Positions 2 through 42,956 of a stretch of 64,000 nucleotides of DNA are shown in pieces. The notes below the pieces were generated by a model. The model was not told where the DNA came from. It saw only the letters and a list, made by a program, of their open reading frames with translations, and did no database searches. A program made the position numbers and the translations under genes. The stretch is from a virus. Taxonomy: Duplodnaviria; Heunggongvirae; Uroviricota; Caudoviricetes. The stretch lies in the IMG/VR virus record IMGVR_UViG_2574180019_000006; one strand, written 5' to 3'. Numbering within the stretch: the first letter of the stretch is position 1; the number at the start of each line of letters is the position of its first letter.

Positions 2-724
2 TGGAAGAGCTGGCAGTTTGTAACTGCCGATTCTCCGTTTGTGCCTACGGCGGAAATTGAAGCTGCTAAGAACGATATGGACCCCAAATCGTTCGCTCAG
101 GAGTACCTGGCCAGCTTTGAGAACATGTCCGGGCGCGTTTACTACCCGTTCGATCGTAACGTGCATGTAAAACCGCTTCAGTTCAACCCTCGGTTGCCTA
201 TATGGGTAGGGCAGGACTTCAACATTGACCCGATGTCTTCAGTAATTTTGCAACCTCAGCCAAATGGTGAGCTATGGGCAATTGATGAATTGGTGCTCTT
301 TTCCTCTAACACGGCAGAAGTTTGTGATGAGCTTGAGAGACGCTTCTGGCGCTGGAAATCACAGGTAACGGTATTTCCAGATCCGGCAGGTGCTTATCGC
401 CAACATGCTCGTGGGGAGTCTGACGTAGACATATTCAAAGAGAAGGGATTCTTACGTGTCGATTATTCGAAAAAGCACCCGCCAATTGCGGATCGTGTTA
501 ATGCTGTTAACCGAATGCTGATGTCCGCATCTGGAGATATCCGGCTGTATATCGATCCGAAGTGCAAGCATTTGATTGATTCACTGGAAAAAGTCATCTA
601 CAAGCCTGGAACACGAGATATGGATAAGACAGGTGGCATTGAGCATAGTGCAGACGCATTGGGCTATCCAGTACATCGTAGGTATCCAGTCAAAAACCGT
701 GTTATTCTTGGTGGTTCTCGATAG
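2..724 (+). CDS. Terminase large subunit, C-terminal part (5' end truncated by window start)
   Basis: Reading frame is open from position 2 with no stop before 724; sits immediately upstream of a portal-like gene, the usual terminase-portal order. Family call is by position and size only. Confidence 0.5.
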   Translation, partial: WKSWQFVTADSPFVPTAEIEAAKNDMDPKSFAQEYLASFENMSGRVYYPFDRNVHVKPLQFNPRLPIWVGQDFNIDPMSSVILQPQPNGELWAIDELVLFSSNTAEVCDELERRFWRWKSQVTVFPDPAGAYRQHARGESDVDIFKEKGFLRVDYSKKHPPIADRVNAVNRMLMSASGDIRLYIDPKCKHLIDSLEKVIYKPGTRDMDKTGGIEHSADALGYPVHRRYPVKNRVILGGSR

Positions 725-750
725 GTAAGTAGTTATCTAAGGTTATTCAA

Positions 751-2325
751 ATGGAATTGAACGACAAACAAATTAAGGATCTGGTGGCGCGACGCCACCC
801 GGAATACGAAAAGAAAAAAGAACATTGGGACTTCCTCGCCAGCACTTACGCTGGCGGGCGTGGTTGGTTTACAGACAATATCTTTCGTTACTTTAAAGAG
901 GGAGATCAGGAGTTTAAGGAGCGAGTTGAACGTGCTTATCGCTTCAACCACACTCGTGAGGTGGTAAACCTCATCAACAAATATCTCTTTAAAGAAGACA
1001 TTCATAGAAATATCGAAGAGGCACCAGAGCAGATCCGCAATTTCTGGAAACGTGCGACTCGCCAGAATGCCTCTATTGACTCATTTATGGCCGCTATTGA
1101 TTTGCAGTCGTCTATTTACGGTCGCATATGGGTTGTTGTCGATAGCACGATGAGTGGTGATGTTGAGTCAGTAGCTGACGAGAAAAAGAAAGATGCTCGC
1201 GCCTACGCCTACTGGATTTCACCTCAGCAAATGCTGGATGTGGCATGGGACGACGACGGGAATATGTTGTGGGCGTTAATTGTGGAAGTCGCTCGTGATG
1301 ACGCAGATCCTTTTACTTCTACAGGTCAGGAATACCAACGTTATCGTCTGTGGGCACAAAACGAGTGGTATCTGTTCCGTGAGGAAGTGAAGAAGGGCGC
1401 TGGTGGAGCAGGTCGCCGTCAGGCAAAAGTTATTTTAGAGGATAGCGGTGAGCATAATCTCGGCGTAGTTCCTGTGTTTCCTGTTGATTGTATTGGAGAA
1501 AGTGAATCACCGTATTTCAGCCCATCGTTGATCGATGATATCGCTTATCTTGATCGTGCGGTTGCAAACTATCTGTCAAACCTTGATGCCATTATTCAGG
1601 ATCAGACATTTAGCCAGTTGGCTATACCGGTACAGTCGCTTTTACCTGGTGATGAAAACCACACTAAAGTGCTTGAAATGGGCACAAAGCGAGTCTTCAC
1701 CTACGATTCTGAAGGTGGAAACCAGCCGTTTTATCTGTCACCAGACCCGAAACAAGCTCAGATGATCATCACTACGATTAAGACGGTGATTAACGAAATC
1801 TACCATTCAGTTGGTGTAGCTGGTGAGCGAACGAAGCAGGACAACGCACAGGGAATCGATAATTCATCTGGTGCCGCAAAAATGTATGACTTCCAGCGTG
1901 TAAATAGCTTGCTTGTCACAAAAGCAGAGCGTCTGGAAAGGGCTGAACGCCAAATCATGCTACTGGTTGCGAAATGGATGGGGGCAGATCTGGACGAAGA
2001 CCACTCTTTAATTGCGTATCCAGAAAGTTTCGATATTCGTGGCCTTACTGATGAATTTTCTGTTGCCGAGAAACTGTCATTACTTCAGGCACCGGACTCT
2101 GTACGTCGTCACCAGATGGAAATGCTTATTGAGAAGATTTTCCCGAACATTACTGAGGCGATGAAAAAGGAATTTGATAAAGATCTCTTGAATTTTCCTC
2201 CAAAAAATGATCTAAATACCCTTGAAAATAAGTCAGTACTTACTTATGATCGTGGTACAGCCCAAGAAAGCGGGCAAGATCAACCCCGAGGGAATGGGGA
2301 CTCATCTACTCAAGAGAACGAGTGA
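751..2325 (+). CDS. Portal protein (putative)
   Basis: 524-aa ORF directly after the terminase fragment and before scaffold and capsid genes; AAGG-type RBS before ATG 751. Confidence 0.55.
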   Translation: MELNDKQIKDLVARRHPEYEKKKEHWDFLASTYAGGRGWFTDNIFRYFKEGDQEFKERVERAYRFNHTREVVNLINKYLFKEDIHRNIEEAPEQIRNFWKRATRQNASIDSFMAAIDLQSSIYGRIWVVVDSTMSGDVESVADEKKKDARAYAYWISPQQMLDVAWDDDGNMLWALIVEVARDDADPFTSTGQEYQRYRLWAQNEWYLFREEVKKGAGGAGRRQAKVILEDSGEHNLGVVPVFPVDCIGESESPYFSPSLIDDIAYLDRAVANYLSNLDAIIQDQTFSQLAIPVQSLLPGDENHTKVLEMGTKRVFTYDSEGGNQPFYLSPDPKQAQMIITTIKTVINEIYHSVGVAGERTKQDNAQGIDNSSGAAKMYDFQRVNSLLVTKAERLERAERQIMLLVAKWMGADLDEDHSLIAYPESFDIRGLTDEFSVAEKLSLLQAPDSVRRHQMEMLIEKIFPNITEAMKKEFDKDLLNFPPKNDLNTLENKSVLTYDRGTAQESGQDQPRGNGDSSTQENE

Positions 2326-2346
2326 TAAGTAACAAAAGGAATTTTT

Positions 2347-3234
2347 ATGAATCTGTGGCAAATGCTTTTGGCCCGTCGTGGTCTGATGGATGTCGCTGAA
2401 GCGCATGAGCGTGGAGGCGCTGGCGGTGTAGCTGCTGATAATGAGCAGAGCACACAAGATCCTGACAAACAGGGTGAACAAAAAGAGCAGCCGAAGGGCG
2501 ATGACGAATACGCTGGCATGACTCAGGAAGAGTTACTGGCCGAACTTCGTAAAACCAAGAAAGCTGGTGCTGAACTGCTGAAGGAGAACATGAAGCGCAA
2601 AGAGAAAGAGCGCACATTGGCCGATCAGCTTGCTCAGTACGGTGATATCGACCCGGCGCGTGCTCGCCAGCTTTTAGAAGCTGAACAGGCCGCAGAAAAT
2701 GCACGTCGTGAGGCGGAGCAAGCTGAACTGGAGCGTCGTGGTGAGTTCGATGCTGTTAAAAAACAGATGATCGAAGCACACCAGGCAGAGCTGGCACAGC
2801 GTGACGAACGTTATACAGCACTGGAAAGTGAAAACGCATCACTGAAATCTCAATTAGTCGAGATGACCGTGGGCGCTTCCTTCAGTAACTCTCTCTTCCT
2901 ACGTGACAAAGTTCTGATGACCCCGGCAAAAGCCCGCGTGATCTACGGTTCTCATTTTGAAGTGGGTGAAGACGGTAGCGTAGTGGGTTATGACAAACCG
3001 GCAGGTCATAAAGAACGAGCTGTTCTGGTTGACGGTGAAGGTAAGCCGTTGCCGTTTGAATCCGCGATTGAACGCATTGTGCGGGCAGATCCGGAAGCTG
3101 ACGCATTGATGCGTAGCGAAGCCAAGCAGGGTGTAGGCTCACATTCCAAATCGACCTACACAATATCCCAACCGAAGAACAAGTCGACTATGGATAAGTT
3201 GGCCTCCGGTCTGGGGAAAATTGGACTTAAGTAA
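2347..3234 (+). CDS. Head scaffolding protein (putative)
   Basis: 295 aa, highly charged and predicted coiled coil (E/A/R/Q-rich), between portal and capsid genes; AAAGGA RBS. Confidence 0.45.
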   Translation: MNLWQMLLARRGLMDVAEAHERGGAGGVAADNEQSTQDPDKQGEQKEQPKGDDEYAGMTQEELLAELRKTKKAGAELLKENMKRKEKERTLADQLAQYGDIDPARARQLLEAEQAAENARREAEQAELERRGEFDAVKKQMIEAHQAELAQRDERYTALESENASLKSQLVEMTVGASFSNSLFLRDKVLMTPAKARVIYGSHFEVGEDGSVVGYDKPAGHKERAVLVDGEGKPLPFESAIERIVRADPEADALMRSEAKQGVGSHSKSTYTISQPKNKSTMDKLASGLGKIGLK

Positions 3235-3259
3235 CATCTAAATCAAAGGGAATTGATAG

Positions 3260-4135
3260 ATGCCATTACTGCGTGAAGAAGCTGAAAAGCTGTCTAACAA
3301 CGAACTCGAACAGGGTGTGATCGAAACCATCATTGATCGCGATGACCTGTTTGCCATCCTGCCTTTTATGAAAATTAATTCAAAGGCATATCTGTACAAC
3401 CGTGAAAAAACGCTGAGCGAAGCTACTTTCATTGATGTGAACGACACCATCACCGAAGGTGCAGCAACCTTCGAAGAGAAAGTTGCGAAGCTGCGCATTC
3501 TGGCTGGCGACGTTGACGTCGACAAATTCCTGGCTACCACTATGGCTGATACCAACAACCAGCTGGCTATCCAGGTTCGTCAGAAAGTCAAAGGTCTGGC
3601 TCGTGCCTTCCGTCGCAATCTGATTGTTGGCGACTCCACCACTAACAACAAAGCCTTCGACGGCATTCCACGCCTGATGCACGCAGATCAGAAGATCGAC
3701 ATTGCAGGTGCATCTATGACTTTCTCCATGTTCGACGAACTGGTCGATGCGGTGAAAGATCTTGGTGCTGACTGCATCATGATGCGTTCTGAGCATCTTC
3801 GCGCATATCGTGCGCTGCTGCGAACTGTAAACGTAGGCCCGTCCGAAATCATGATGGAAAACTTCGGTCGACCAATGCTGTGCCATAACGGCGTTCCGTT
3901 TATCGTAAACGACTTCATTCCGACCGATGCTGGCAAAGCAAGCATCTACTGCCTGCATCTGTCAGAAGAGAACGGCGTTACTGGTCTGTATGGCGGCGAC
4001 AACGCAGGTATCGTTGTTGAAAACATTGGTACTGTACAGAACAAAGATGCAGTACGTACCCGTGTGAAGTGGTACTGCTCTCTGGCGAATAAGCACGATA
4101 AGGCTATCGCTGCACTGACCAATGTAAAAATTTAA
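3260..4135 (+). CDS. Major capsid protein (putative)
   Basis: 291-aa ORF in canonical position after scaffold, followed by a strong rho-independent terminator as expected for a highly expressed capsid gene. Confidence 0.55.
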   Translation: MPLLREEAEKLSNNELEQGVIETIIDRDDLFAILPFMKINSKAYLYNREKTLSEATFIDVNDTITEGAATFEEKVAKLRILAGDVDVDKFLATTMADTNNQLAIQVRQKVKGLARAFRRNLIVGDSTTNNKAFDGIPRLMHADQKIDIAGASMTFSMFDELVDAVKDLGADCIMMRSEHLRAYRALLRTVNVGPSEIMMENFGRPMLCHNGVPFIVNDFIPTDAGKASIYCLHLSEENGVTGLYGGDNAGIVVENIGTVQNKDAVRTRVKWYCSLANKHDKAIAALTNVKI

Positions 4136-4168
4136 TCAGTGTTGTAGATAAGTAATTATCTATGTTTA

Positions 4169-4196
4169 AGGGTGGGCTATACGCCCACCCTTTTTG
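4169..4196 (+). terminator. Rho-independent terminator
   Basis: GC-rich hairpin AGGGTGGGC-tata-CGCCCACCCT followed by TTTTT. Confidence 0.6.
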
Positions 4197-4208
4197 TAGG
4201 AGCAAGAA

Positions 4209-5129
4209 ATGCCAGAACAAAAGATGAAGATTACGGAAGAGGCATTTTCGGATTTTACGGGGCATATGTGCCGCGCCGGATTTACCAATTCTATCTCCGA
4301 TGAACCTTTAACCGAGCGGCAACAAAGTCAGCTATCTGCTTGTTTGCAGGCGGTTCCCTTCTCCCAATCCGTAAACATAACTCCGGCTTCACCATCAGTT
4401 TTGGTTGGGAAAACTGTTCAACTTAGTGCAGGTATTAGTATGGGTAAGAGTGCCAGTTCATTTACCTGGAAGTCAGCCAATGATCAAATTGCAACCGTTA
4501 ACGGCACTGGATTAGTAACTGGCGTAGCCCCAGGCAAAGTAAAAATTACTGCAACTGATCAGGAAACCCAGCTTTCCGCTTCAGTGGAAGTCACCGTAAA
4601 TCCGGTAGCCGTTAAATCCGTAACGGTAACGCCAGACTCAACCTCTGTTGAGAAAGGGAAATCAGTCAGTCTGAAAGCGAATGTTCAGCCGTCAAATGCG
4701 ACGAATAAGGCAGTTACCTGGTCTTCCAAAAATGAAGACAAGGCAACGGTAGACCAGAGCGGGAACGTTACTGGTGTAGAAGTTGGCACTGCGACGATTG
4801 AGATCGTTTCCCAAGATGGCAGCAAAAAGGCAACTGCAACGGTGGAAGTAACTGCGCCTGTTGTGGCTGTTACCGGCGTCGAAATCGACCCAAATAGCAC
4901 AACCGTTGAGGCAAACAAAACTGTTCAGCTGACCGCAAATGTCGAGCCGGCAGGAGCCACAAATAAAACCGTTACTTGGGAATCCAAAAATACCGAGTTT
5001 GCAACGGTGGACAGCGAAACCGGTGTTGTAACTGGTGTTGCGGCTGGTACTGCCACAATCGAGGTTACTACCCAAGATGGTAGCCACAAAGCGACAGCGA
5101 CCGTAGAGGTCACTGCCGCACAGGAATAA
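4209..5129 (+). CDS. Ig-like (Big_2-type) domain protein, probable head decoration protein
   Basis: Three tandem ~80-aa repeats of the pattern TV..GKTVQL.A.V.P..ATNK.VTW.S.N...ATVD..G.VTGV..GTATI typical of bacterial Ig-like group 2 domains. Confidence 0.6.
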   Translation: MPEQKMKITEEAFSDFTGHMCRAGFTNSISDEPLTERQQSQLSACLQAVPFSQSVNITPASPSVLVGKTVQLSAGISMGKSASSFTWKSANDQIATVNGTGLVTGVAPGKVKITATDQETQLSASVEVTVNPVAVKSVTVTPDSTSVEKGKSVSLKANVQPSNATNKAVTWSSKNEDKATVDQSGNVTGVEVGTATIEIVSQDGSKKATATVEVTAPVVAVTGVEIDPNSTTVEANKTVQLTANVEPAGATNKTVTWESKNTEFATVDSETGVVTGVAAGTATIEVTTQDGSHKATATVEVTAAQE

Positions 5130-5173
5130 CCGATATTGGGCGGCGAAAGCCGCCCAAGAGGAGAGAAAGCGTT

Positions 5174-5608
5174 ATGAAACCAGCAAAAATTGTTTTATTA
5201 GAACCGCAATTTTCCGGTTATTCGGGAATGCTGTGTGGCGTTCAGTTCGAGAACGGGGTATCCGTAGCGGAGTTGCCTTTTATCGATCAGCAAAGGATTT
5301 GTGCCTCAATGCGAGCATCAACAGTCGAGGGCAAAAATGTTTCTCCGTCTGCCGCATACAGTGATCGTGGCGAGTTGACCGCAGACCTGATTACCGAGCC
5401 AGCAGCACCTGGCATTGTGCCAATGAAACGTGGGACACCAGATGAACCGGCCAAACAGATCCAGACTTTCACACGAGAAGAGTTGGAGTCAATTGCAGAC
5501 AATGAAGGCATTGCCGGTCTACGTGTGATTGGTAATCAGGTTGGTGTCAAAGCGAAAGGAATTGTCGAGATGATTGAAGGCATCCTGAAAGCACAAGGCG
5601 GTGAGTAA
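5174..5608 (+). CDS. Hypothetical head-module protein
   Basis: 144-aa ORF with RBS GAGGAGAG upstream, within the head gene block. Confidence 0.4.
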   Translation: MKPAKIVLLEPQFSGYSGMLCGVQFENGVSVAELPFIDQQRICASMRASTVEGKNVSPSAAYSDRGELTADLITEPAAPGIVPMKRGTPDEPAKQIQTFTREELESIADNEGIAGLRVIGNQVGVKAKGIVEMIEGILKAQGGE

Positions 5609-6441
5609 TGGCGCAGATCGACTCGTATCGTAGCGGTGAAGCTGTTTCCCTTTCATTTGCCTTCAACGTGCTGGATATCGAATCTGCTACCTACACAGTA
5701 AAGGACAGCACCGGGGCTATTCTCGTTGATGGCGAGCCGCTAGAAATTACCAGCGGTCAAATGTCGATTCCGGTTGTCGTGTCGGCTGAATATAACCAGC
5801 TCTCTGAGAAAGAGCGAGATCTGCGGTACGTCATTGTGAAGGCTGTTGCATCGGGTCTGACGCATGAAGAGCGGCAAATGTATGTTCTGCTGAATAGTTT
5901 TGAACTGTCGATACCAGAACAGTCGTTTGCAACTGTCGCTGATGCTCAAATGCAGGCGATCGATATGCTGAATGGGGACACTTTGCTGTCGGATGGTGAA
6001 GGCTTAATGCGCAAGCGTCTCATTGAGGCTACCAGACGAATTAAAACTTTACCGTTCTCAATCCGCAAAATTCTACGTATCGACTTTGACCGATACGATC
6101 GCCCTCAAAATATGCTGAATGTGTATGACATTCCGTGGGGAGCAGATGGAGCGTACCGGCATGATTTAGTCGATTGGGAAAAGATGACGCAGGAGAAGTT
6201 TGAAGAGTTCCCTGACTACTTCAAAGAAGCGTTGATGCTTGCCGTTGTCAACGAAGCGTGTGAGATCGCAAATGGCAATGATGTAGCCGCAGCACGAGAG
6301 GATGGCATTTTGTCAGAGTCCATCGGTGAAACAACCAACATGTACCGTACCGGTAAAGCTGCAAACGTGCATGTGGCTCGTAGTACCTGGCGCTTGCTGG
6401 TCAGTTACATCAACAACCGTATGATTGTTCGCCGTGCGTAA
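5608..6441 (+). CDS. Hypothetical head/connector-module protein
   Basis: 277-aa ORF whose start overlaps the stop of the previous gene (translational coupling). Confidence 0.4.
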   Translation: MAQIDSYRSGEAVSLSFAFNVLDIESATYTVKDSTGAILVDGEPLEITSGQMSIPVVVSAEYNQLSEKERDLRYVIVKAVASGLTHEERQMYVLLNSFELSIPEQSFATVADAQMQAIDMLNGDTLLSDGEGLMRKRLIEATRRIKTLPFSIRKILRIDFDRYDRPQNMLNVYDIPWGADGAYRHDLVDWEKMTQEKFEEFPDYFKEALMLAVVNEACEIANGNDVAAAREDGILSESIGETTNMYRTGKAANVHVARSTWRLLVSYINNRMIVRRA

Positions 6442-6520
6442 CGCCAGTCGCATTATTTACTTTTGGTCGAAAGGGTTTTTGGCCAGTAATGAGAGCGACC
6501 GACAACAACAGGGAGAGAGC

Positions 6521-6865
6521 ATGAATATTTCATGGCAAACAGAAATTGCGATCTACCGCTTTGGCGCAAAGAACGTTTACGGCGAGGCGCAATTACAATT
6601 CGTCAGGAAGACGAATGTCGGCGTGGTTAAGTTCGAACAGAGTAATGAGAAATCGTCAGTTCGTGCTGATAGCTCTGGTAGTCGTGGTAAGGCGAGTCTG
6701 GAGCTGTTTGATGCTGTGTTAGTTGTCCCTTTAGAAGCGGCTGTACAACTTGATGATGTGCTGATCCTTGAAGGTCAAAAATTAAAGGTGTCCAGTGTTC
6801 ATCGCCGCTGGGGGCTACGAGGAAGACCTGGGCATCTTGAAGTGGGGGCGAATATATGGGTCTGA
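6521..6865 (+). CDS. Hypothetical protein (head-tail joining region)
   Basis: ORF track gives 6425..6865; the internal ATG at 6521 is preceded by GGGAGAG RBS and is preferred as start. Confidence 0.35.
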   Translation: MNISWQTEIAIYRFGAKNVYGEAQLQFVRKTNVGVVKFEQSNEKSSVRADSSGSRGKASLELFDAVLVVPLEAAVQLDDVLILEGQKLKVSSVHRRWGLRGRPGHLEVGANIWV

Positions 6866-7329
6866 AATACGATGCGCATCAGTTCAAACGTGCGGGGAAT
6901 AGACTCAATAACAGCCAGAAAGCATTTAAGCGATATCTTATTCGGGACATGGAAAAGCTGGCGCGTTTGGTTGAGCGTCTCAGCCGTGCAATGGCCCCGC
7001 TGGAAACCGGATCTCTGGAGACAGCCATCTTTGCCAGGGTGATTAAAGAAGGTTATTCAGGGCTGCGCATTGAGCTTTCTGTGTCTGGAGCAAAACCACG
7101 TCAGGGGCATCCGGGCGTAGAAGTCGGTGACTATGCTAAGTACATGGAGCTGGGTAAATACCGACTCGGTTATCTTTCTCGAATGAAGAACGTGACAAAC
7201 CCACCAATTGCCGGTGTTAAACCTCGTGTTGGGCCACACTTTCTGGAAAGAGCGGTGGAAATTAGCGAGAAGCAGTTCTCAGAAGCGATTCTTGAGGCTG
7301 CAAGAAAAGCCGGTTTTACGAGAGGTTAA
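6856..7329 (+). CDS. Hypothetical protein (head-tail joining region)
   Basis: 157-aa ORF overlapping the previous stop. Confidence 0.4.
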   Translation: MGLKYDAHQFKRAGNRLNNSQKAFKRYLIRDMEKLARLVERLSRAMAPLETGSLETAIFARVIKEGYSGLRIELSVSGAKPRQGHPGVEVGDYAKYMELGKYRLGYLSRMKNVTNPPIAGVKPRVGPHFLERAVEISEKQFSEAILEAARKAGFTRG

Positions 7330-38020: not shown

Positions 38021-38797
38021 ATGAAAGACGAAATTCAGAAATTAGCCTGCGACATCATTGATAAAACTGGTTTAGAAATCAGCGAGAGCAATCGGCTAGA
38101 CATCATTGAAAAAGCCGTAAAAACAGCAATGGATCATATCGCCACTCGTTTGGTCGAGATCCCGCTACCGGGGCTACCTTATCTGAAGGTTAAGTTACAC
38201 GTATGGGGTGAACCTTCTTGTGCACGACGTTCTGCATTAGTTGTTTTTATTAGCAAAGAAAACCCGCTCAGTCTTAAAGTGCAGGTTGGAGCATGGCTTG
38301 ATGGCAGAGTGATCTACACAAATACCGTTTTTTGTCTTTCAAACGACGAAACTATTGAAGCGGCCATTCAAGAAGCAGTTCTAGCAATGCGCAGCAGCGG
38401 TTTGATGAAGAATAACTACGAAGAGTACTTGCGTTCGATAAGTGGTGAAAAGACATTATCTCTGAAAGCAGATTTCGTTACCCCGAAAAATCTGTTGGAA
38501 GTCTTGCTTAATAAAGGGGCTAATGATGCCGTAAATGTAATCAGAGAGAGTGAGTATGCGTCTCTTTGCGACATGTGCAAAAGCCAGTTGGATCTGGTGC
38601 ATATCGTTATTGATGCTGGGAAGGCATGTGATGGCGTAATGGCGGAGTTTGCTGGGAAGATGGTCAGGATTGCTAATGAATTACCGATGATAGAGCAAGA
38701 GGCTAAATCATACGCCACCAATCATGTCACAGAGCTTCTTGTCCCCTATCGCTTAGAAAGCGATCAGCGCAAGATGATTAGCTGGGGAAGTTGGTAA
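38021..38797 (+). CDS. Hypothetical protein
   Basis: 258-aa ORF with AGGAG RBS. Confidence 0.4.
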   Translation: MKDEIQKLACDIIDKTGLEISESNRLDIIEKAVKTAMDHIATRLVEIPLPGLPYLKVKLHVWGEPSCARRSALVVFISKENPLSLKVQVGAWLDGRVIYTNTVFCLSNDETIEAAIQEAVLAMRSSGLMKNNYEEYLRSISGEKTLSLKADFVTPKNLLEVLLNKGANDAVNVIRESEYASLCDMCKSQLDLVHIVIDAGKACDGVMAEFAGKMVRIANELPMIEQEAKSYATNHVTELLVPYRLESDQRKMISWGSW

Positions 38798-38852
38798 GCT
38801 CTCAGTGTGTCGTTTTTTACGCAAATAATGATAGGTAAGCACAAGATTATTT

Positions 38853-39335
38853 TTGGCGGTAATTGTGAAAGCTGATTTGTCAAAAATCCCCTCTATTTCA
38901 GGAAATAATGGTTATTCACTTCGTTGTGAGGAAGTAAAGATAAACGGTGAGTCGGCATATTGCAGCTACTCCGTTTGCCAGCACACCATTCTTGCCTTCA
39001 AAGAAAACCGTCTTCCTCGAACTTCATTCCAGTCGTGCGCAACCGCTATCAAAGCAGGCAAATGCAAGGCGTTAAAAATGATGGTTGAAGAGATTCGTAA
39101 AGGAGAATCTCTGTATTTCGAAGATATGACCGCGCTCATTAAGGAGGTTGAAGAACGGAATAAACAAGCCAGAACTTTAAAACGAAAACGTGACAGTGTA
39201 ACGATTAATAGCATGGTTAAGAAGAGCACCACATCACAAACAGCGATCACTGACGTGTATGCGGCGTTGCTTGAAGAAACAACAAAAGAAACACATGGGC
39301 AAATCGATCAACATATGGAGGTAAAACAACAATGA
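38853..39335 (+). CDS. Hypothetical protein
   Basis: 160-aa ORF with TTG start in the ORF track; true start uncertain. Confidence 0.3.
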   Translation: MAVIVKADLSKIPSISGNNGYSLRCEEVKINGESAYCSYSVCQHTILAFKENRLPRTSFQSCATAIKAGKCKALKMMVEEIRKGESLYFEDMTALIKEVEERNKQARTLKRKRDSVTINSMVKKSTTSQTAITDVYAALLEETTKETHGQIDQHMEVKQQ

Positions 39336-40654
39336 AAAAGTTGATCGCACTTAAACATAAGCTGGACGAAATGAAAGCTATGGGAACCAATGCAAAAAAA
39401 GAGGCATTGGCCAACATGGATGACTTTGAACAAAGCATGGTTTCATTGATGCTCAACCCTTTCATCCGTTTTGGGGTAAAGAAATACAAAGTGGCAGAGC
39501 CGCTTAGTGAGTCCATCCCAAGTGACGAAAAAGCCATTGATGTACTGAATAAGCTGGCCTCTCGCGAGCTAACGGGGAACGCAGCAATAACAGCTGTTGA
39601 GTCTATCGTGGCGTCAATGTGCGCCGATGGGCAGGACGTGTTCCGTCGTTTCCTCTTAAAAGACCCGAAAGCAGGTGTTGGGATTAGCCTATGCAACAAG
39701 GTTTTTGAAAATCCCATTCCGAAATTCGAGGTGCAGCTGGCGTCACCGTATAAAGAAAAAGGCGACAAATACCCCTTCAAGCCAAATCCTAAAGCAAAAT
39801 GGCCGATGATTGGCAGTCTTAAGCTCGATGGTTTGCGAGTAATTTGCGAGGTTATTGTTGACGAGGAAGAGGTTAACTTCCTTTCTCGTACTGGTAATCC
39901 AATCACGTCTCTCGATCACCTAAAGCCAGCAATGCTCGAATTAGGCAAACTTTCAGGCCACAAACACATCTTCTTCGATGGTGAAGGAACTGCCGGTTCA
40001 TTTAACCAGTCCGTATCTGCATTGCGCAAAAAGAACGTGCAGGCAATTGGCGCTATTTATCATGTTTTCGACTTCTTCCTACCGGAATGGCGAGCACAGG
40101 CTAAATCCAAAGAGTATGCAAAGACAGGTATGAAGCTGAAAGAGCGCCTGGCTATTCTCGTGGCGTTGTTCAAAAACGATCGCAGTGAAGGCTACACACA
40201 AGACATTCACCTGCATCCGTTCTATATCATCCATAGCCACGAAGACTTCATCGAACGCTTCATGAAACGCCTGGACGATAACGAAGAAGGGGAGATGGGC
40301 AAAGATCCGAACTCTGTTTACGAGTTTAAACGTACCCGCAGCTGGTGGAAGTTAAAAGACGAAGATTCAGAAGATGGTGAAATTATCGACTTTGAGCCGG
40401 GCGACCCGGACTCTGGTTTTGCCAACACACTTGGAAAAATTGTTATTCGTCTTGAAAACGGCGTCATCGTTCGTGCGAGCGGCATTAAGCATAAATATCT
40501 GGATGAGATCTGGAACAACAAAGAGAAGTACCGTGGTCGTATTGTCGAGGTTCATTGTCACGAGAAAACACCGGACGGCAGCTTACGCCACCCACGACTG
40601 AAATGGCCGCGTTGCTTACGCGATACAGAAGATCGAATCGGAGATAAAGAATGA
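39332..40654 (+). CDS. ATP-dependent DNA ligase
   Basis: Adenylation motif I KLDGLRV (lysine nucleophile) plus downstream nucleotidyltransferase motifs (FDGE, EGEMGK-like); 440 aa. Confidence 0.7.
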   Translation: MKKLIALKHKLDEMKAMGTNAKKEALANMDDFEQSMVSLMLNPFIRFGVKKYKVAEPLSESIPSDEKAIDVLNKLASRELTGNAAITAVESIVASMCADGQDVFRRFLLKDPKAGVGISLCNKVFENPIPKFEVQLASPYKEKGDKYPFKPNPKAKWPMIGSLKLDGLRVICEVIVDEEEVNFLSRTGNPITSLDHLKPAMLELGKLSGHKHIFFDGEGTAGSFNQSVSALRKKNVQAIGAIYHVFDFFLPEWRAQAKSKEYAKTGMKLKERLAILVALFKNDRSEGYTQDIHLHPFYIIHSHEDFIERFMKRLDDNEEGEMGKDPNSVYEFKRTRSWWKLKDEDSEDGEIIDFEPGDPDSGFANTLGKIVIRLENGVIVRASGIKHKYLDEIWNNKEKYRGRIVEVHCHEKTPDGSLRHPRLKWPRCLRDTEDRIGDKE

Positions 40655-40830
40655 TGCTCGGCTGGATGATTGCATTTTTAGCAGTTGGTTTTTTCATAGG
40701 TATTGTGGTGATGTCCAGTTGCATCAATGACTACATTAAAAGCGGTGTTATAGAAAGACGCGGTCGTATTTATCGCATTGTAGAAATAACCAACACCCTG
40801 AAGGAGATTAAGGATGATCGTATTAAGTAA
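40651..40830 (+). CDS. Small membrane protein (59 aa), paralog A
   Basis: Not in the ORF track (below size cut-off); translated by hand: MMLGWMIAFLAVGFFIGIVVMSSC...GRIYRIVEITN; start overlaps ligase stop (ATGA). Confidence 0.35.
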   Translation: MMLGWMIAFLAVGFFIGIVVMSSCINDYIKSGVIERRGRIYRIVEITNTLKEIKDDRIK

Positions 40831-41029
40831 ACGGGAGAAGGAAACGCTTCATGAAATCAGTAAGTGGCCGGAGTTCCCTGAGTACTGGAAGCCTAAAACG
40901 CGAGCTAAGTTAGAGCGTTTAGGGTTGGTTGCAAACGTTTCTGAAACGTGGTGTTCGGCCAACTACCAGTTAACTGATAAAGGGAAAGTATTGCTACAGC
41001 AATTAGTAGAATCAGGAGCGTTAAAATGA
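40814..41029 (+). CDS. Hypothetical protein
   Basis: 71-aa ORF overlapping its neighbours on both sides. Confidence 0.35.
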   Translation: MIVLSKREKETLHEISKWPEFPEYWKPKTRAKLERLGLVANVSETWCSANYQLTDKGKVLLQQLVESGALK

Positions 41030-41178
41030 TTCCATACATCTCATTAGCTTTTATGGGTGGCTTCCTTATCGGCTTCGGCATCTGTCGTGATTTAATTAAG
41101 CAGGAACTTAAAACCAAAACACTGTGCATCGGAAAGCGTGTGTATCGGGTAGTTCATGAAACAAAGGTGAAAAAATGA
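41026..41178 (+). CDS. Small membrane protein (50 aa), paralog B
   Basis: Translated by hand: MIPYISLAFMGGFLIGFGICRD...GKRVYRVVHETK; RBS AGGAG; shares a TM segment and basic GRR.YR.VE.T tail with paralog A. Confidence 0.35.
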   Translation: MIPYISLAFMGGFLIGFGICRDLIKQELKTKTLCIGKRVYRVVHETKVKK

Positions 41179-41465
41179 GCAATTTAACTTCTTGGGAATG
41201 GTGGTTGGCCACCTATTTCTTAGCGGCCGGAGTCGCATTCGCCTTTTACGTAGGTCAGTTAGTCGTAAAACTGTTGCTGATTAAATTTGCTAGTCATAAA
41301 CGTATCGATGATGGTCTGTGGCGTCTTGGCACCCTGGTGGAAACTCGCTACGGGCAACTTAAGGAGAACGAAACCATTACTATCCAAGCGAAACGATTCA
41401 CTGCCACCATTACAAGAACACCTAGTCGTAGAGTGGCCTTGATCAAAAAAGTCACAACCGAATAA
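41175..41465 (+). CDS. Membrane protein, hypothetical
   Basis: 96 aa with N-terminal TM helix; start overlaps previous stop. Confidence 0.4.
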   Translation: MSNLTSWEWWLATYFLAAGVAFAFYVGQLVVKLLLIKFASHKRIDDGLWRLGTLVETRYGQLKENETITIQAKRFTATITRTPSRRVALIKKVTTE

Positions 41466-42241
41466 AAACATATTGATAAGTATTTACTTACTTATCTTTT
41501 GTGTATAAGATGACTTTGTTTTCGTTGAGACGCGACTGTTTGAACTTAAATACAAGTGCAAACGAAGAAGTCTATCTGGCAGTAGCCTAATAAGCCAAAC
41601 ACCAGCGAGGTCAGTTTCCAGCCTCGTTACCGAAATGGGACACACTGAGCGAGTGTGATTGCAGAACGCAGGAGGGAACATGAATGTTCCCTCCGATGAA
41701 GTAACAGAATGGGCGGTTGGTATATTTTCAACTCCATATGACTCCCGGATTCTTAGCCACTGACCGCCCATCCTGTTACGTCATTTTGTTCAATTATGTC
41801 GTTTATACTGGGTTAAAAAGCGGCGACGTAGCCCGGCTGGTATGGTTAGCCAGCACACAACGTTGAGGCCATTACATTTTTATCAATTCTAAGGTTCTAT
41901 TCACAGAGATACCGGCGAGCGTTGATATGTAACATGTTGGGCAAACATTCAATCGGAGTAGTGGCCTCAACGTTGTGAAGACAGGATTGTTGTGTAGGTT
42001 TAACCACTGTTGCCATTGGTGCCTGTTTTCACAACAAATGATTCCATACATCACATTGTATAAATTACAAAGTAGGTGCTGTCCTCAGAAACATCATCTA
42101 CTTAAAGATTTAGCCTTCTATTGAGCGAAGTCGAAAACGTCTGGCACTAACGAAAAGTGCAAGTAGCGGTGCGTTTCCTGGCAGAAACTAACACCGCCGC
42201 GATTGGCACTGTTGAGTAATAAATACTGTCAGTGCTGAATT

Positions 42242-42316
42242 GATGGTGTAGCTCAGCGGTAGAGCAGTTGGCTGTTAACCAACTGGTCGGTGGTTCGAAT
42301 CCACCCACCATCGCCA
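42242..42316 (+). tRNA. tRNA-Asn (anticodon GTT)
   Basis: Complete cloverleaf folded by hand: 7-bp acceptor GATGGTG/CACCATC, D-stem GCTC/GAGC, anticodon stem GTTGG/CCAAC with loop CTGTTAA, T-arm GGTGG-TTCGAAT-CCACC, encoded CCA. Confidence 0.85.
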
Positions 42317-42318
42317 AT

Positions 42319-42394
42319 GCCGGTTTAGCTCAGTTGGTAGAGCGCCTGCCTTGTAAGCAGGATGTCAGCGGTTCGATCCCGTTAACCGGCACCA
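42319..42394 (+). tRNA. tRNA-Thr (anticodon TGT)
   Basis: Cloverleaf: acceptor GCCGGTT/AACCGGC, D-arm GCTC-AGTTGGTA-GAGC, anticodon stem CCTGC/GCAGG with loop CTTGTAA, T-loop TTCGATC, encoded CCA; 2 nt after tRNA-Asn. Confidence 0.85.
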
Positions 42395-42714
42395 ACACAA
42401 CAGGTAAGAGCATTGGGCGAATCGGCGATACTGACCCACAAGGCCGTAAATCGATAGAGTCAGACCAGTGCTCTTACCGTTGTGAGGAAGTGCAGCTCTT
42501 TGAAGCAACCAGAAGATAAGCATCTGGCTTCACAACACAACGATAAGATCATTACGGTTAATCGTCGTTCATGTGCACAATGACTGGTCGAAAGGTAGTG
42601 ATCTTACCGTTGTGATGAATGCACAGGCTGATGTGCCGCAACTACAGTAGTGCGCGCTTTGCGGGGCTTGCTACAACCCTGTGTCGGAGTTCAGCACCGA
42701 CCATCACAATAGCT

Positions 42715-42801
42715 GGAGAGTAGGGAGCATGGTGCTCAAGCGGTCTTGAAAACCGTCCCATTGCGCAAGCGATGATGGTTCGATTCCATTACTCTCCGCC
42801 A
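42715..42801 (+). tRNA. Probable type II tRNA-Ser (anticodon TGA) with long variable arm
   Basis: Acceptor GGAGAGT/ACTCTCC, anticodon stem GCGGT/ACCGT with loop CTTGAAA, long variable region, T-loop TTCGATT, encoded CCA; D-arm is atypical so the call is tentative. Confidence 0.45.
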
Positions 42802-42956
42802 GACACAGCGTTGAGCGGTTTGGCCTTTTAATCAACTCGATTAAGACTCCGCTAACATAAACCAGACCGCTCAACGCTGTGATAGACAATTACGGCAGAC
42901 GTTCTTAACCATAGCTTGCTAACATCCTAGCAACACTTTTTTCAGCGCAAAATCCA

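What the first reader, a model, noticed from the sequence alone, without database searches (positions are those of the whole stretch)
40651..41465. Tandem cluster of small membrane proteins including two paralogs missed by the ORF track
Hand translation reveals two sub-60-aa ORFs (40651..40830 and 41026..41178) with the same architecture: an N-terminal TM helix then a basic tail G(R/K)R(I/V)YR(I/V)VE.T. They interleave with overlapping ORFs and are followed by another small TM protein (41175..41465). Small membrane peptides in phages often act in exclusion, lysis timing or host takeover.
Basis: seen in the sequence. Interest (0 to 1): 0.45.

Follow-up and report, generated by a model that had tools for sequence, protein, structure and literature searches.

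The report
Small membrane-protein genes after phage ligase
Four real, conserved small genes sit at the end of the DNA-replication operon of an SSU5-like phage-plasmid: two old paralogous single-pass membrane peptides, a third unrelated membrane protein and a small soluble protein; they are already annotated as hypotheticals, their function is unknown, and a more unusual tmRNA-like RNA lies just downstream.

Summary
The window is an E. coli SSU5-like phage-plasmid. Downstream of its DNA ligase lie four overlapping, translationally coupled genes: orf1 (40651/40654-40830), orf2 (40814-41029), orf3 (41026-41178) and orf4 (41175-41465). All four are under purifying selection (dN/dS 0.06-0.21) and occur in hundreds of plasmids, including pHCM2 and pMT1. 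RefSeq and PHROGs already list them as hypotheticals; "missed" only reflects a 60-aa cut-off.

orf1 and orf3 are true paralogues. The profile comparison gives E 4e-6, and no column shuffle of 400 reaches its score. Both share GxxxG in the TM helix and an invariant R-[IV]-Y-R-[IV]-V tail motif, and intermediate sequences exist. orf4 is an unrelated bitopic protein. orf2 is soluble and weakly winged-helix-like.

Predicted topology is N-out/C-in. The genes are silent in a lysogen, like the ligase, and lie away from the lysis cassette. This argues against exclusion or lysis timing. It favours an accessory lytic-phase module acting at the cytoplasmic membrane face; its partner is unknown. orf1 is often deleted.

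Interest is low to moderate. A conserved ~355-nt structured RNA (41517-41871) carrying a tmRNA-like tag frame (ANEEVYLAVA**) deserves its own follow-up.

The parts
39332..40654 (+). ATP-dependent DNA ligase, the upstream gene of the same operon (context). Its stop codon overlaps the orf1 start (ATGATG).
   Evidence: ORF. Annotated as DNA ligase in Cyrano, SSU5 and RefSeq plasmids. PF01068 on the orthologues.
40651..40830 (+). orf1: a 59-aa protein (58 aa from the second ATG at 40654, the start used by PGAP and SSU5). It is a single-pass membrane protein with TM about residues 3-22 containing GxxxG. Its cytoplasmic tail carries the invariant RRGRIYRI motif. It is a paralogue of orf3. GGAG lies at 40640-40643.
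   Evidence: phrog_4381, E 1e-39; dN/dS 0.06-0.15; TM helix pLDDT about 90.
40814..41029 (+). orf2: a 71-aa soluble protein that overlaps orf1 by 17 nt. AAGGAG lies at 40801-40806. Its C-terminal half is weakly winged-helix-like.
   Evidence: phrog_4054, E 1e-45; no hydrophobic segment. All 9 orthologues give sub-threshold HTH_45 hits, best E 0.0035. Weak hits to the wHTH parts of PA1607, Csa3 and SSO5209.
41026..41178 (+). orf3: a 50-aa single-pass membrane protein with an ATGA overlap with the orf2 stop. TM about residues 4-20 contains GxxxG. Its cytoplasmic tail carries the invariant GKRVYRVVHE motif. It is a paralogue of orf1 and the most widely retained of the four genes.
   Evidence: phrog_6302, E 1e-36; dN/dS 0.16-0.21.
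41175..41465 (+). orf4: a 96-aa single-pass membrane protein with an ATGA overlap with the orf3 stop. The model shows a long helix (residues 6-61, the TM helix plus a cytoplasmic extension) followed by a beta-hairpin (67-71 and 76-80). It is unrelated to orf1 and orf3. It carries the propagated label 'C-type natriuretic protein'.
   Evidence: phrog_4507, E 2e-58; dN/dS 0.08-0.10; AF2 mean pLDDT 63.9.
41475..41496 (+). AT-rich hairpin (GAUAAGUA..UACUUAUC) followed by CUUUUGUG. It is a possible weak terminator of the operon. It overlaps the promoter-like site of the downstream RNA.
   Evidence: -11.6 kcal/mol, z -2.98. The sequence is conserved.

Best explanation
Shown:
- Positions 40651-41465 form the 3' end of the lytic DNA-replication operon (helicase, primase, ligase) of an SSU5-like phage-plasmid.
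- They encode four genuine small proteins whose start and stop codons overlap, so they are made together with the ligase.
- Orf1 and Orf3 are ancient paralogues of one very narrow family, with only 22 cluster representatives among 1.8 billion proteins.
- Each paralogue has one N-terminal TM helix with a GxxxG motif and a roughly 30-residue basic tail whose core R-[IV]-Y-R-[IV]-V is invariant.
- Orf4 is a third, unrelated single-pass protein. Orf2 is soluble.

Inferred:
- All three membrane proteins insert N-out/C-in, so almost all of their mass faces the cytoplasm.
- Their TM helices pack against each other (GxxxG) into a small inner-membrane complex during lytic growth.
- The invariant basic tails, perhaps together with the winged-helix-like Orf2, hold a cytoplasmic partner at the membrane.
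- My preferred partner is the replicating phage DNA or replisome, the same principle as phi29 p16.7. I put that specific step at only about 0.2-0.25.
- The module is accessory. orf1 in particular is often lost without loss of the element.
For: Real genes: dN/dS is 0.06-0.21 against SSU5, pHCM2, pMT1 and Klebsiella orthologues, with synonymous sites saturated. Matches are full length in 478-670 PLSDB plasmids per gene. All four genes are present in 55 of 82 distinct ligase-anchored loci.

Operon and coupling: ATGA or 17-nt overlaps and Shine-Dalgarno sites precede every start. No terminator-like site separates the genes; the only + strand hit inside the cluster (41200-41213) lies within the orf4 coding sequence, and the scan found fewer sites than shuffles give. 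The position directly after the ligase, with overlapping stop and start, is kept even in the most divergent relatives L013 and L015 (ligase 70-74% identical).

Paralogy: plus intermediates such as P0130 (orf3-type MIPYI N-terminus with an orf1-type RRRVYRVVEIT tail) and P0125. Both paralogues are kept in the divergent L015.

Topology: there are no charged residues before the TM segment, and the net charge after it is +3 to +8. The TM helix is modelled with pLDDT about 90.

Lytic-phase expression: in the LF82(Cyrano) lysogen, CYRAN_36-39 have values of about 5-8 with a floor of 4.99. This equals the ligase and compares with 151-7084 for lysogen-expressed genes (moron list).

Accessory nature: orf1 is deleted exactly between 16-nt near-repeats in ESBL242 and in 11 of 82 loci. 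It is found in 139 Escherichia plasmids against 218 for orf3. It carries an in-frame TM deletion in L011.
Against: - There is no direct evidence of translation, membrane insertion, complex formation or any phenotype.
- The cytoplasmic tail of Orf1 is modelled with low confidence (pLDDT 54-59) and as a helix, so its fold is unknown. The Orf4 model is also weak (63.9).
- No sequence similarity to any solved structure or characterised family was found, so the partner is a guess.
- L012 keeps orf3 and orf4 although only a remnant of the ligase (a partial tblastn match) and no orf1 or orf2 are left, so the module does not strictly need the ligase.
- Topology rests only on the positive-inside rule. 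The hydrophobicity of the orf3 and orf4 segments is marginal on the Hessa scale (+0.5 and +0.8 kcal/mol).
- The RNA-seq values come from one strain in non-inducing conditions.
Confidence: 0.5

Rival explanations
1. Host takeover through in-membrane inhibition. The small TM proteins bind a host inner-membrane protein through helix-helix contacts and block it early in lytic growth. Candidate targets are divisome components (as with SPO1 gp56 or Caulobacter SidA, from general knowledge), a transporter, or a membrane protease.
For: GxxxG is conserved in both paralogues. The genes follow the lytic replication genes in expression. The region after the ligase carries other early or counter-defence genes in relatives: Lar and NinH in L013, Tad2-like and Acb2/Tad1 in L015. 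The genes are dispensable.
Against: The most conserved part is the cytoplasmic tail motif, not the TM helix, whose residues other than the two glycines vary freely. No similarity to any known inhibitor was found.
Confidence: 0.2
2. Superinfection exclusion or defence proteins that are expressed from the resident plasmid prophage and block incoming phage DNA.
For: Small phage membrane proteins often do this (general knowledge: T4 Imm, P22 Sie). An AbiH gene lies nearby in one Klebsiella plasmid.
Against: Expression is at the RNA-seq floor in a lysogen and the genes are not among the listed morons. Only about 3 residues are predicted outside the cytoplasm. The orf1, orf3 and orf4 proteins have no PADLOC hit; orf2 has only weak matches to the winged-helix end of CARF-type proteins. 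The genes are embedded in, and coupled to, the replication operon.
Confidence: 0.07
3. Lysis control: Orf4, or Orf1 and Orf3, act as holin, antiholin or lysis-timing factors.
For: orf4 gives a weak hit to a holin PHROG (phrog_2359, E 0.027, 27 residues of the TM region). The proteins are small, have one TM helix and a charged C-terminus.
Against: A complete holin-endolysin-Rz-Rz1 cassette lies elsewhere (CYRAN_22-25, 26.7-28.2 kb, against 37.4 kb for the ligase end). The hit covers only hydrophobic residues. The genes travel with replication genes in every relative.
Confidence: 0.05
4. Membrane-active toxic peptides of a plasmid addiction (type I toxin-like) system.
For: The peptides are about 50 aa with an N-terminal TM helix, and the host element is rich in toxin-antitoxin pairs (KacT, RelE, HicA).
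Against: No Hok/Gef or other toxin family hit at E<=1. They are translationally coupled inside a long operon rather than being a stand-alone, antisense-controlled gene. They are silent in the plasmid state, when addiction would be needed.
Confidence: 0.03
5. Chance ORFs or decaying remnants without function.
For: Short ORFs are abundant in the region, and orf1 is often lost.
Against: Third-codon-position bias and dN/dS of 0.06-0.21 hold across lineages with saturated synonymous change. The reading frames are intact in most of the 82 distinct loci, with conserved ribosome-binding sites and overlaps.
Confidence: 0.02

Closest known systems
PHROG families phrog_4381 (orf1), phrog_4054 (orf2), phrog_6302 (orf3), phrog_4507 (orf4); SSU5_045-048; the RefSeq WP_ hypothetical proteins of pHCM2, pMT1 and Klebsiella/E. 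coli phage-plasmids
   Same: Full-length matches at E 1e-36 to 2e-58. Same gene order after the ligase.
   Different: Nothing differs: the window genes are members. All are of unknown function. orf1 and orf3 sit in separate PHROGs although they are paralogues.
Bacillus phage phi29 p16.7, a membrane-anchored organiser of phage DNA replication (from general knowledge)
   Same: A small early protein encoded with replication functions. It has an N-terminal TM anchor with the rest in the cytoplasm, and it is non-essential but auxiliary. This is the principle I propose for how the module works.
   Different: p16.7 is about 130 aa with a coiled coil and a dimeric DNA-binding domain. No sequence similarity was detected: profile searches of the PDB returned nothing relevant. 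The host is Gram-positive. DNA binding by the tails studied here is untested.
Small bitopic division or host-function inhibitors (SPO1 gp56, Caulobacter SidA; from general knowledge)
   Same: Very small single-pass inner-membrane proteins made early, acting through contacts in or at the membrane.
   Different: No homology. Here the conserved element is a cytoplasmic basic motif rather than the TM or periplasmic part.
Hok/Gef and other type I membrane toxins
   Same: About 50 aa with an N-terminal TM helix, carried on plasmids.
   Different: No Pfam match. Opposite predicted orientation, with the C-terminus in the cytoplasm. Operon-embedded and translationally coupled.
Holins and antiholins
   Same: Small, TM-containing, with a charged C-terminus. 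orf4 gives a weak PHROG holin hit.
   Different: Not next to an endolysin; the true lysis cassette is elsewhere.

Membership tests
PHROGs 4381 / 4054 / 6302 / 4507 (SSU5-like hypothetical proteins) | Full-length profile match | tested here: met
   E 1.1e-39, 1.1e-45, 1.4e-36 and 1.8e-58, each covering the whole profile.
orf1/orf3 paralogue family (defined here) | One N-terminal TM helix with G12xxxG16 and the motif R38-[IV]-Y40-R41-[IV]-[IV] at a fixed distance | tested here: met
   The joint alignment is ungapped, and R38, Y40 and R41 are invariant in 32 sequences. hhalign E 4e-6. Shuffle controls.
orf1/orf3 paralogue family (defined here) | Does orf4 also belong? | tested here: not met
   hhalign probability 2.3% and 0.5%.
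Hok/Gef type I toxins | Match to the Hok_Gef profile | tested here: not met
   No such family among Pfam hits at E<=1.
Hok/Gef type I toxins | Antisense RNA control and a stand-alone locus | tested here: not met
   Stop-start overlaps within a multi-gene operon. An antisense RNA was not searched for experimentally.
Holin / antiholin | Encoded in a lysis cassette next to an endolysin | tested here: not met
   Holin, endolysin, Rz and Rz1 are CYRAN_22-25, about 9-10 kb upstream and separated by partition, toxin-antitoxin and replication genes.
Holin / antiholin | Profile similarity to a holin family | tested here: inconclusive
   orf4 against phrog_2359: E 0.027 over 27 hydrophobic residues only.
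Superinfection exclusion proteins (Imm/Sie type) | Expressed from the resident prophage | tested here: not met
   CYRAN_37-39 lie at the floor of the LF82 lysogen RNA-seq and are absent from the moron list. This is one strain under non-inducing conditions.
phi29 p16.7-like membrane replication organisers | N-terminal TM anchor, cytoplasmic remainder, encoded with early or replication genes | tested here: met
   Topology is predicted, not measured.
phi29 p16.7-like membrane replication organisers | Sequence or structural relatedness of the cytoplasmic domain; DNA binding | tested here: not met
   There were no PDB sequence matches for the profiles. The models were too uncertain for a fold search. 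DNA binding is not testable with these tools. Hence 'works like', not 'member of'.
Winged-helix DNA-binding proteins (orf2) | Profile match above the curated threshold | tested here: inconclusive
   HTH_45 is hit by 9 of 9 orthologues but with best E 0.0035 and 12.5 bits against a cut-off of 25.5.
tmRNA (for the neighbouring RNA at 41517-41871) | Tag reading frame without a start codon that ends in hydrophobic Ala-rich residues and a double stop | tested here: met
   GCA AAC GAA GAA GTC TAT CTG GCA GTA GCC TAA TAA at 41558-41593. Substitutions in the YLAVA part are synonymous only across lineages. Upstream indels break any longer ORF.
tmRNA (for the neighbouring RNA at 41517-41871) | tRNA-like domain (G3-U70 acceptor stem, T-arm, CCA) and a match to a tmRNA model | tested here: not met
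   ARAGORN calls no tmRNA. Rfam tmRNA families reach only 13-17 bits, covering the tag region alone, against gathering scores of 47-84. No canonical acceptor or T-arm was found by inspection.

The most novel reading that the evidence does not exclude
Orf1, Orf3 and Orf4, with Orf2 as a soluble adaptor, form a dedicated inner-membrane docking complex. It is produced by translational coupling with the phage ligase and anchors the lytic replisome or replicating DNA of SSU5-like phage-plasmids. That would make it a Gram-negative counterpart of the phi29 p16.7/p1 system, built from an unrelated and previously unrecognised protein family.
Probability: 0.15. Interest if true: 0.55.

Novelty: new member of a known kind. 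Interest (0 to 1): 0.3.

Why it matters
SSU5-like phage-plasmids are common in clinical Enterobacterales (E. coli, Klebsiella, S. Typhi pHCM2, Y. pestis pMT1) and spread resistance genes, yet most of their early genes are uncharacterised.

This work shows that the four genes are a conserved, translationally coupled tail of the replication operon. It shows that two of them are old paralogues with an invariant cytoplasmic motif. Together these give a concrete, testable entry point (topology, partners, deletion phenotype), but no new principle by themselves.

The practical gains are:
- corrected annotation: the orf1 start, orf1 missing in the Cyrano record, and the meaningless 'C-type natriuretic protein' label on orf4;
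- a pointer to the adjacent tmRNA-like RNA, which could matter more.

Tried and rejected
- Pfam, NCBIfam and PADLOC scans of all four proteins gave nothing above threshold.
- PDB profile searches for orf1/3, orf2 and orf4 gave only chance-level hits.
- AlphaFold2 models were too uncertain outside the TM helices (mean pLDDT 71.4 for orf1, 63.9 for orf4). I therefore did not run fold searches, whose matches would have been meaningless.
- I tested whether orf4 is a third paralogue because of its K-R-F-T-A-T-I hairpin; this was rejected.
- An exhaustive HMMER search with the joint orf1/orf3 profile found no members outside small proteins of this family. The two contexts I checked are SSU5-like contigs.
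- I looked for peptides of the pMT1 orthologues in a Y. pestis small-protein proteomics supplement and found none.
- I looked for published sRNAs on pMT1 that might equal the neighbouring RNA. sR082 and sR083 map elsewhere on pMT1.
- Literature searches for 'C-type natriuretic protein' with phage, for the tag peptides, and for tmRNA in SSU5, pHCM2 or pMT1 found nothing relevant.
- The genome-contig scan with the ligase returned only 2 loci.
Full report
**What the window is.** The 3 kb around the finding are 98-100% identical to E. coli phage-plasmids (p4_0.2, phage Cyrano of strain LF82) and 74-79% identical to Salmonella phage SSU5. The same stretch occurs in 752 PLSDB plasmids of Klebsiella, Escherichia, Enterobacter, Salmonella (pHCM2), Yersinia pestis (pMT1), Citrobacter and Cronobacter. 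The finding lies at the end of a rightward operon of helicase, primase, two hypotheticals and an ATP-dependent DNA ligase (39332-40654). It lies upstream of a tRNA-Asn/Thr/Ser cluster.

**The observation.**
- orf1 is 40651-40830. PGAP and the SSU5 record start it at the second ATG, 40654, and in the SSU5 group the preceding codon is not ATG.
- orf2 is 40814-41029, orf3 is 41026-41178 and orf4 is 41175-41465.
- The ligase stop overlaps the orf1 start (ATGATG). orf2 overlaps orf1 by 17 nt. orf3 and orf4 each start with an ATGA overlap.
- Each start is preceded by a GGAG-type site.
- This is the signature of translational coupling, so the four genes are expressed as a tail of the ligase message. 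A weak AT-rich hairpin followed by a U-run sits just after orf4.

**Are they genes?** ORFs of this size are common by chance: 43 ORFs of at least 25 aa overlap this 3-kb stretch. The test is therefore conservation.
- Against SSU5, pHCM2, pMT1, Citrobacter and Klebsiella orthologues, substitutions concentrate at third codon positions.
- dN/dS is 0.06-0.15 for orf1, 0.16-0.21 for orf3 and 0.08-0.10 for orf4.
- For orf2, dN is 0.22-0.29 with synonymous sites saturated.
- tblastn finds near-full-length copies in 478 (orf1), 635 (orf2), 670 (orf3) and 641 (orf4) plasmid records.
- They are not new to databases. SSU5_045-048, RefSeq WP_ entries and PHROGs 4381, 4054, 6302 and 4507 cover them, all with unknown function.
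- The Cyrano record lacks orf1.
- The label 'C-type natriuretic protein' on orf4 has no support in Pfam or NCBIfam.

**Paralogy of orf1 and orf3.**
- BLASTP of the two window proteins gives E 3e-5.
- I collected each family (52 and 30 clusters, all from contigs typical of about 100-112-kb phage-plasmids). In both, the most conserved block is the same motif at the same position: RRGRIYRI in orf1 and GKRVYRVVHE in orf3, residues 35-45. Both also keep G12 and G16 in the TM helix.
- The joint alignment needs no gap.
- hhalign gives 87% probability and E 4e-6 over 48 columns.
- In my control, none of 200 full column shuffles (z 8.3) reached the real score. None of 200 shuffles that keep the TM-then-tail layout did either (z 5.4; the best shuffle, 28.1, came close to 28.5).
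- orf4, also a small TM protein, scores 0.5-2.3% against both, so a TM segment alone does not produce the signal.
- An exhaustive HMMER search of 1.84 billion representatives with the joint profile found only 22 clusters.
- Among them are intermediates such as P0130 (orf3-type N-terminus MIPYI, orf1-type tail RRRVYRVVEIT) and P0125.
- The duplication is old. The divergent metagenomic relative L015 (ligase about 70% identical) keeps orf1-like, orf2-like, orf3-like and orf4-like genes in the same order with the same overlaps. L013 has a single family member directly after the ligase, followed by an orf4-like gene.

**Anatomy of the proteins.**
- orf1, orf3 and orf4 each have one hydrophobic segment starting at residue 4-10. 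No charged residue precedes it in orf1 and orf3, and orf4 has one acidic residue. The net positive charge after it is +3, +7 and +8.
- By the positive-inside rule they should insert N-out/C-in. That leaves about 3 residues (orf1, orf3) or about 9 residues (orf4) outside and the conserved tails in the cytoplasm. This is an inference; no dedicated topology predictor was available.
- AlphaFold2 models the orf1 TM helix with pLDDT about 90, but the tail only at 54-59.
- The orf4 model has a long helix (residues 6-61) and a beta-hairpin (67-80) at mean pLDDT 63.9.
- orf2 has no hydrophobic segment. It gives consistent but sub-threshold winged-helix hits: HTH_45 in 9 of 9 orthologues with best E 0.0035, and the wHTH parts of PA1607, Csa3 and SSO5209.

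**When are they expressed?** The LF82 study (PMC9928086) re-analysed RNA-seq of the Cyrano lysogen.
- In its S1 table, CYRAN_36 (ligase) to CYRAN_39 (orf4) have values of about 5-8, with 4.99 as the apparent floor.
- Genes expressed in the lysogen reach 151 to 7084.
- None of the cluster genes is in the moron list.
- The cluster thus behaves like the lytic replication genes, not like lysogenic-conversion or exclusion genes.
- I found no direct evidence of translation. The Y. pestis small-protein proteomics supplement holds no peptide of the pMT1 orthologues, as would be expected for silent lytic genes.

**Dispensability and modularity.** Among 82 distinct ligase-anchored loci, the gene patterns were as follows.

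| Pattern | Loci |
|---|---|
| All four genes present | 55 |
| Only orf1 missing | 11 |
| orf3 truncated and orf4 replaced (Klebsiella) | 6 |

- In plasmid ESBL242 the orf1 deletion is exact. It lies between the near-repeats GGAGATAAAGAATGAT and GGAGATTAAGGATGAT that precede the orf1 and orf2 starts, and it restores a ligase-orf2 overlap.
- L011 carries an in-frame deletion of just the orf1 TM helix.
- L012 keeps orf3 and orf4 with only a remnant of the ligase and without orf1 and orf2.
- Escherichia plasmids with orf1 number 139, against 218 with orf3.
- The genes are therefore accessory, and orf3 plus orf4 look like the more persistent pair.

**Mechanism.** Three points follow from the evidence.
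- The proteins are made with the ligase in lytic growth.
- They sit in the inner membrane facing the cytoplasm.
- Selection acts mainly on a short basic cytoplasmic motif and on two glycines spaced as in helix-packing motifs.

The best-supported reading is a small membrane-anchored complex that holds a cytoplasmic partner at the membrane.
- I favour the replicating DNA or replisome as partner because of the invariant linkage to the replication operon. This is the principle of phi29 p16.7, but I put that step at only 0.2-0.25.
- In-membrane inhibition of a host protein is the main rival (0.2).
- Lysis control is disfavoured because a complete holin-endolysin-Rz-Rz1 cassette lies about 9-10 kb away.
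- Exclusion is disfavoured by the silence in lysogens and by the lack of periplasmic mass.
- A type I toxin role is disfavoured by the operon context and by the absence of any family hit.

**Novelty and score.** The genes are known as hypotheticals. The paralogy, the motif, the predicted orientation, the coupling to the ligase and the loss pattern are new details, but they are not surprising for a phage early region. I rate this as a new member of a known kind (small bitopic phage membrane proteins), with interest 0.3.

**Side finding that may deserve more attention than the cluster.** The 775-nt 'non-coding' gap between orf4 and tRNA-Asn holds a block (about 41517-41871) that is far better conserved than the flanking genes.
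- It is present in 80 of the 82 loci.
- A conserved promoter-like site precedes it: TTTACT at 41483-41488, a 17-nt spacer, and TAAGAT at 41506-41511.
- Conservation stops abruptly after ...GAGGCCA at 41871.
- RNAalifold predicts a highly structured RNA. Its 5' and 3' ends pair (GUUGAGACG with CGUUGAGGC, with consistent G-C/G-U and U-G/U-A changes). It has a 25-bp hairpin and a variable hairpin with compensatory changes.
- At 41558-41593 it carries GCA AAC GAA GAA GTC TAT CTG GCA GTA GCC TAA TAA, which reads ANEEVYLAVA**. From memory, the E. coli ssrA tag is ANDENYALAA**.
- Other lineages have ANEDTYLAVA, ANEDAYLAVA, ANDNQYLAVA, ANENQYLAVAL and, in the divergent L015, ANDDVVLMAA.
- Within YLAVA all substitutions are synonymous (TAT/TAC, CTG/CTA, GCC/GCT/GCA).
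- Indels of 1-2 nt upstream exclude a conventional ORF.
- Only this tag region aligns to Rfam tmRNA models, at 13-17 bits and far below threshold. ARAGORN calls nothing, RefSeq annotates nothing there, and I could not find a canonical tRNA-like domain.
- In L013 a tRNA with anticodon CTA, and in L015 a T-arm/acceptor-like piece, are inserted at the same point of the scaffold.
- I found no paper that mentions these tags.
- Whether this is a divergent tmRNA, a tmRNA mimic or something else remains open.

Noticed in passing
window 41517-41871 (+); tag frame 41558-41593; promoter-like -35 at 41483-41488 and -10 at 41506-41511: An unannotated, highly conserved and structured RNA of about 355 nt lies between orf4 and tRNA-Asn. 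It carries a tmRNA-like tag reading frame (ANEEVYLAVA**). Other lineages have ANEDTYLAVA, ANDNQYLAVA and ANDDVVLMAA, with only synonymous changes in the YLAVA part and no conserved start codon. It is present in 80 of 82 related loci and is better conserved than the neighbouring genes. No canonical tRNA-like domain was found. ARAGORN makes no call, Rfam tmRNA models reach only 13-17 bits on the tag region, RefSeq annotates nothing there, and no paper mentions the tags.
   Followed up: partly
L013 9810-9885; L015 7218-7252: In divergent relatives, tRNA-type elements are inserted into the same point of that RNA scaffold, just before its long hairpin. L013 has a tRNA with anticodon CTA, which is amber-suppressor-like and which ARAGORN labels 'Pyl'. 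L015 has a T-arm plus acceptor-like fragment (GCGGGTTCGATTCCCGC GTCACTCTCCCA).
   Followed up: partly
window 40640-40656 and 40803-40819; L004 1530-1575: 16-nt near-repeats (GGAGATAAAGAATGAT and GGAGATTAAGGATGAT) precede the orf1 and orf2 starts. Recombination between them removes orf1 exactly and re-creates a ligase-orf2 overlap. This is seen in ESBL242 and in 11 of 82 loci.
   Followed up: yes
L011 1839-1952; L010 2214-2781: Two Klebsiella variants differ from the window. pKPN20-2 has an in-frame deletion of just the orf1 TM helix, between ATGCTCGG and ATGCTCAG repeats. In several plasmids orf3 is truncated after its TM helix, and orf4 is replaced by an unrelated 138-aa protein with a C-terminal hydrophobic segment; an orf4 remnant lies downstream.
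   Followed up: partly
downstream of orf4 in related loci: L005 2896-3801, L009 2428 onward, L008 3571 onward, L015 9594-10381, L013 7962-8636: The stretch after orf4 and the RNA is a cargo hot spot. It holds caf1R (F1 capsule) in pMT1, an ars operon that truncates orf4 in a Citrobacter plasmid, AbiH in a Klebsiella plasmid, Tad2-like and Acb2/Tad1-like anti-defence genes in L015, and NinH and Lar in L013.
   Followed up: no
window 41175-41465: The product name 'C-type natriuretic protein' attached to orf4 in many GenBank and RefSeq records has no support from Pfam, NCBIfam or PHROGs. It appears to be a propagated misannotation.
   Followed up: yes
window 42242-42801; Cyrano CYRAN_40 (L001 6069-6281, minus strand): CYRAN_40 is listed as a lysogen-expressed 'moron' in the LF82 study. 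It is a minus-strand ORF that overlaps tRNA-Thr and tRNA-Ser. Its RNA-seq signal (about 151) may simply be tRNA reads.
   Followed up: no
window 38500-42900: The consensus scan found no sigma-70-like promoter, where shuffles give 7.1 +/- 2.5. This fits a long operon and/or non-canonical promoters such as the TTTACT-17-TAAGAT site.
   Followed up: no
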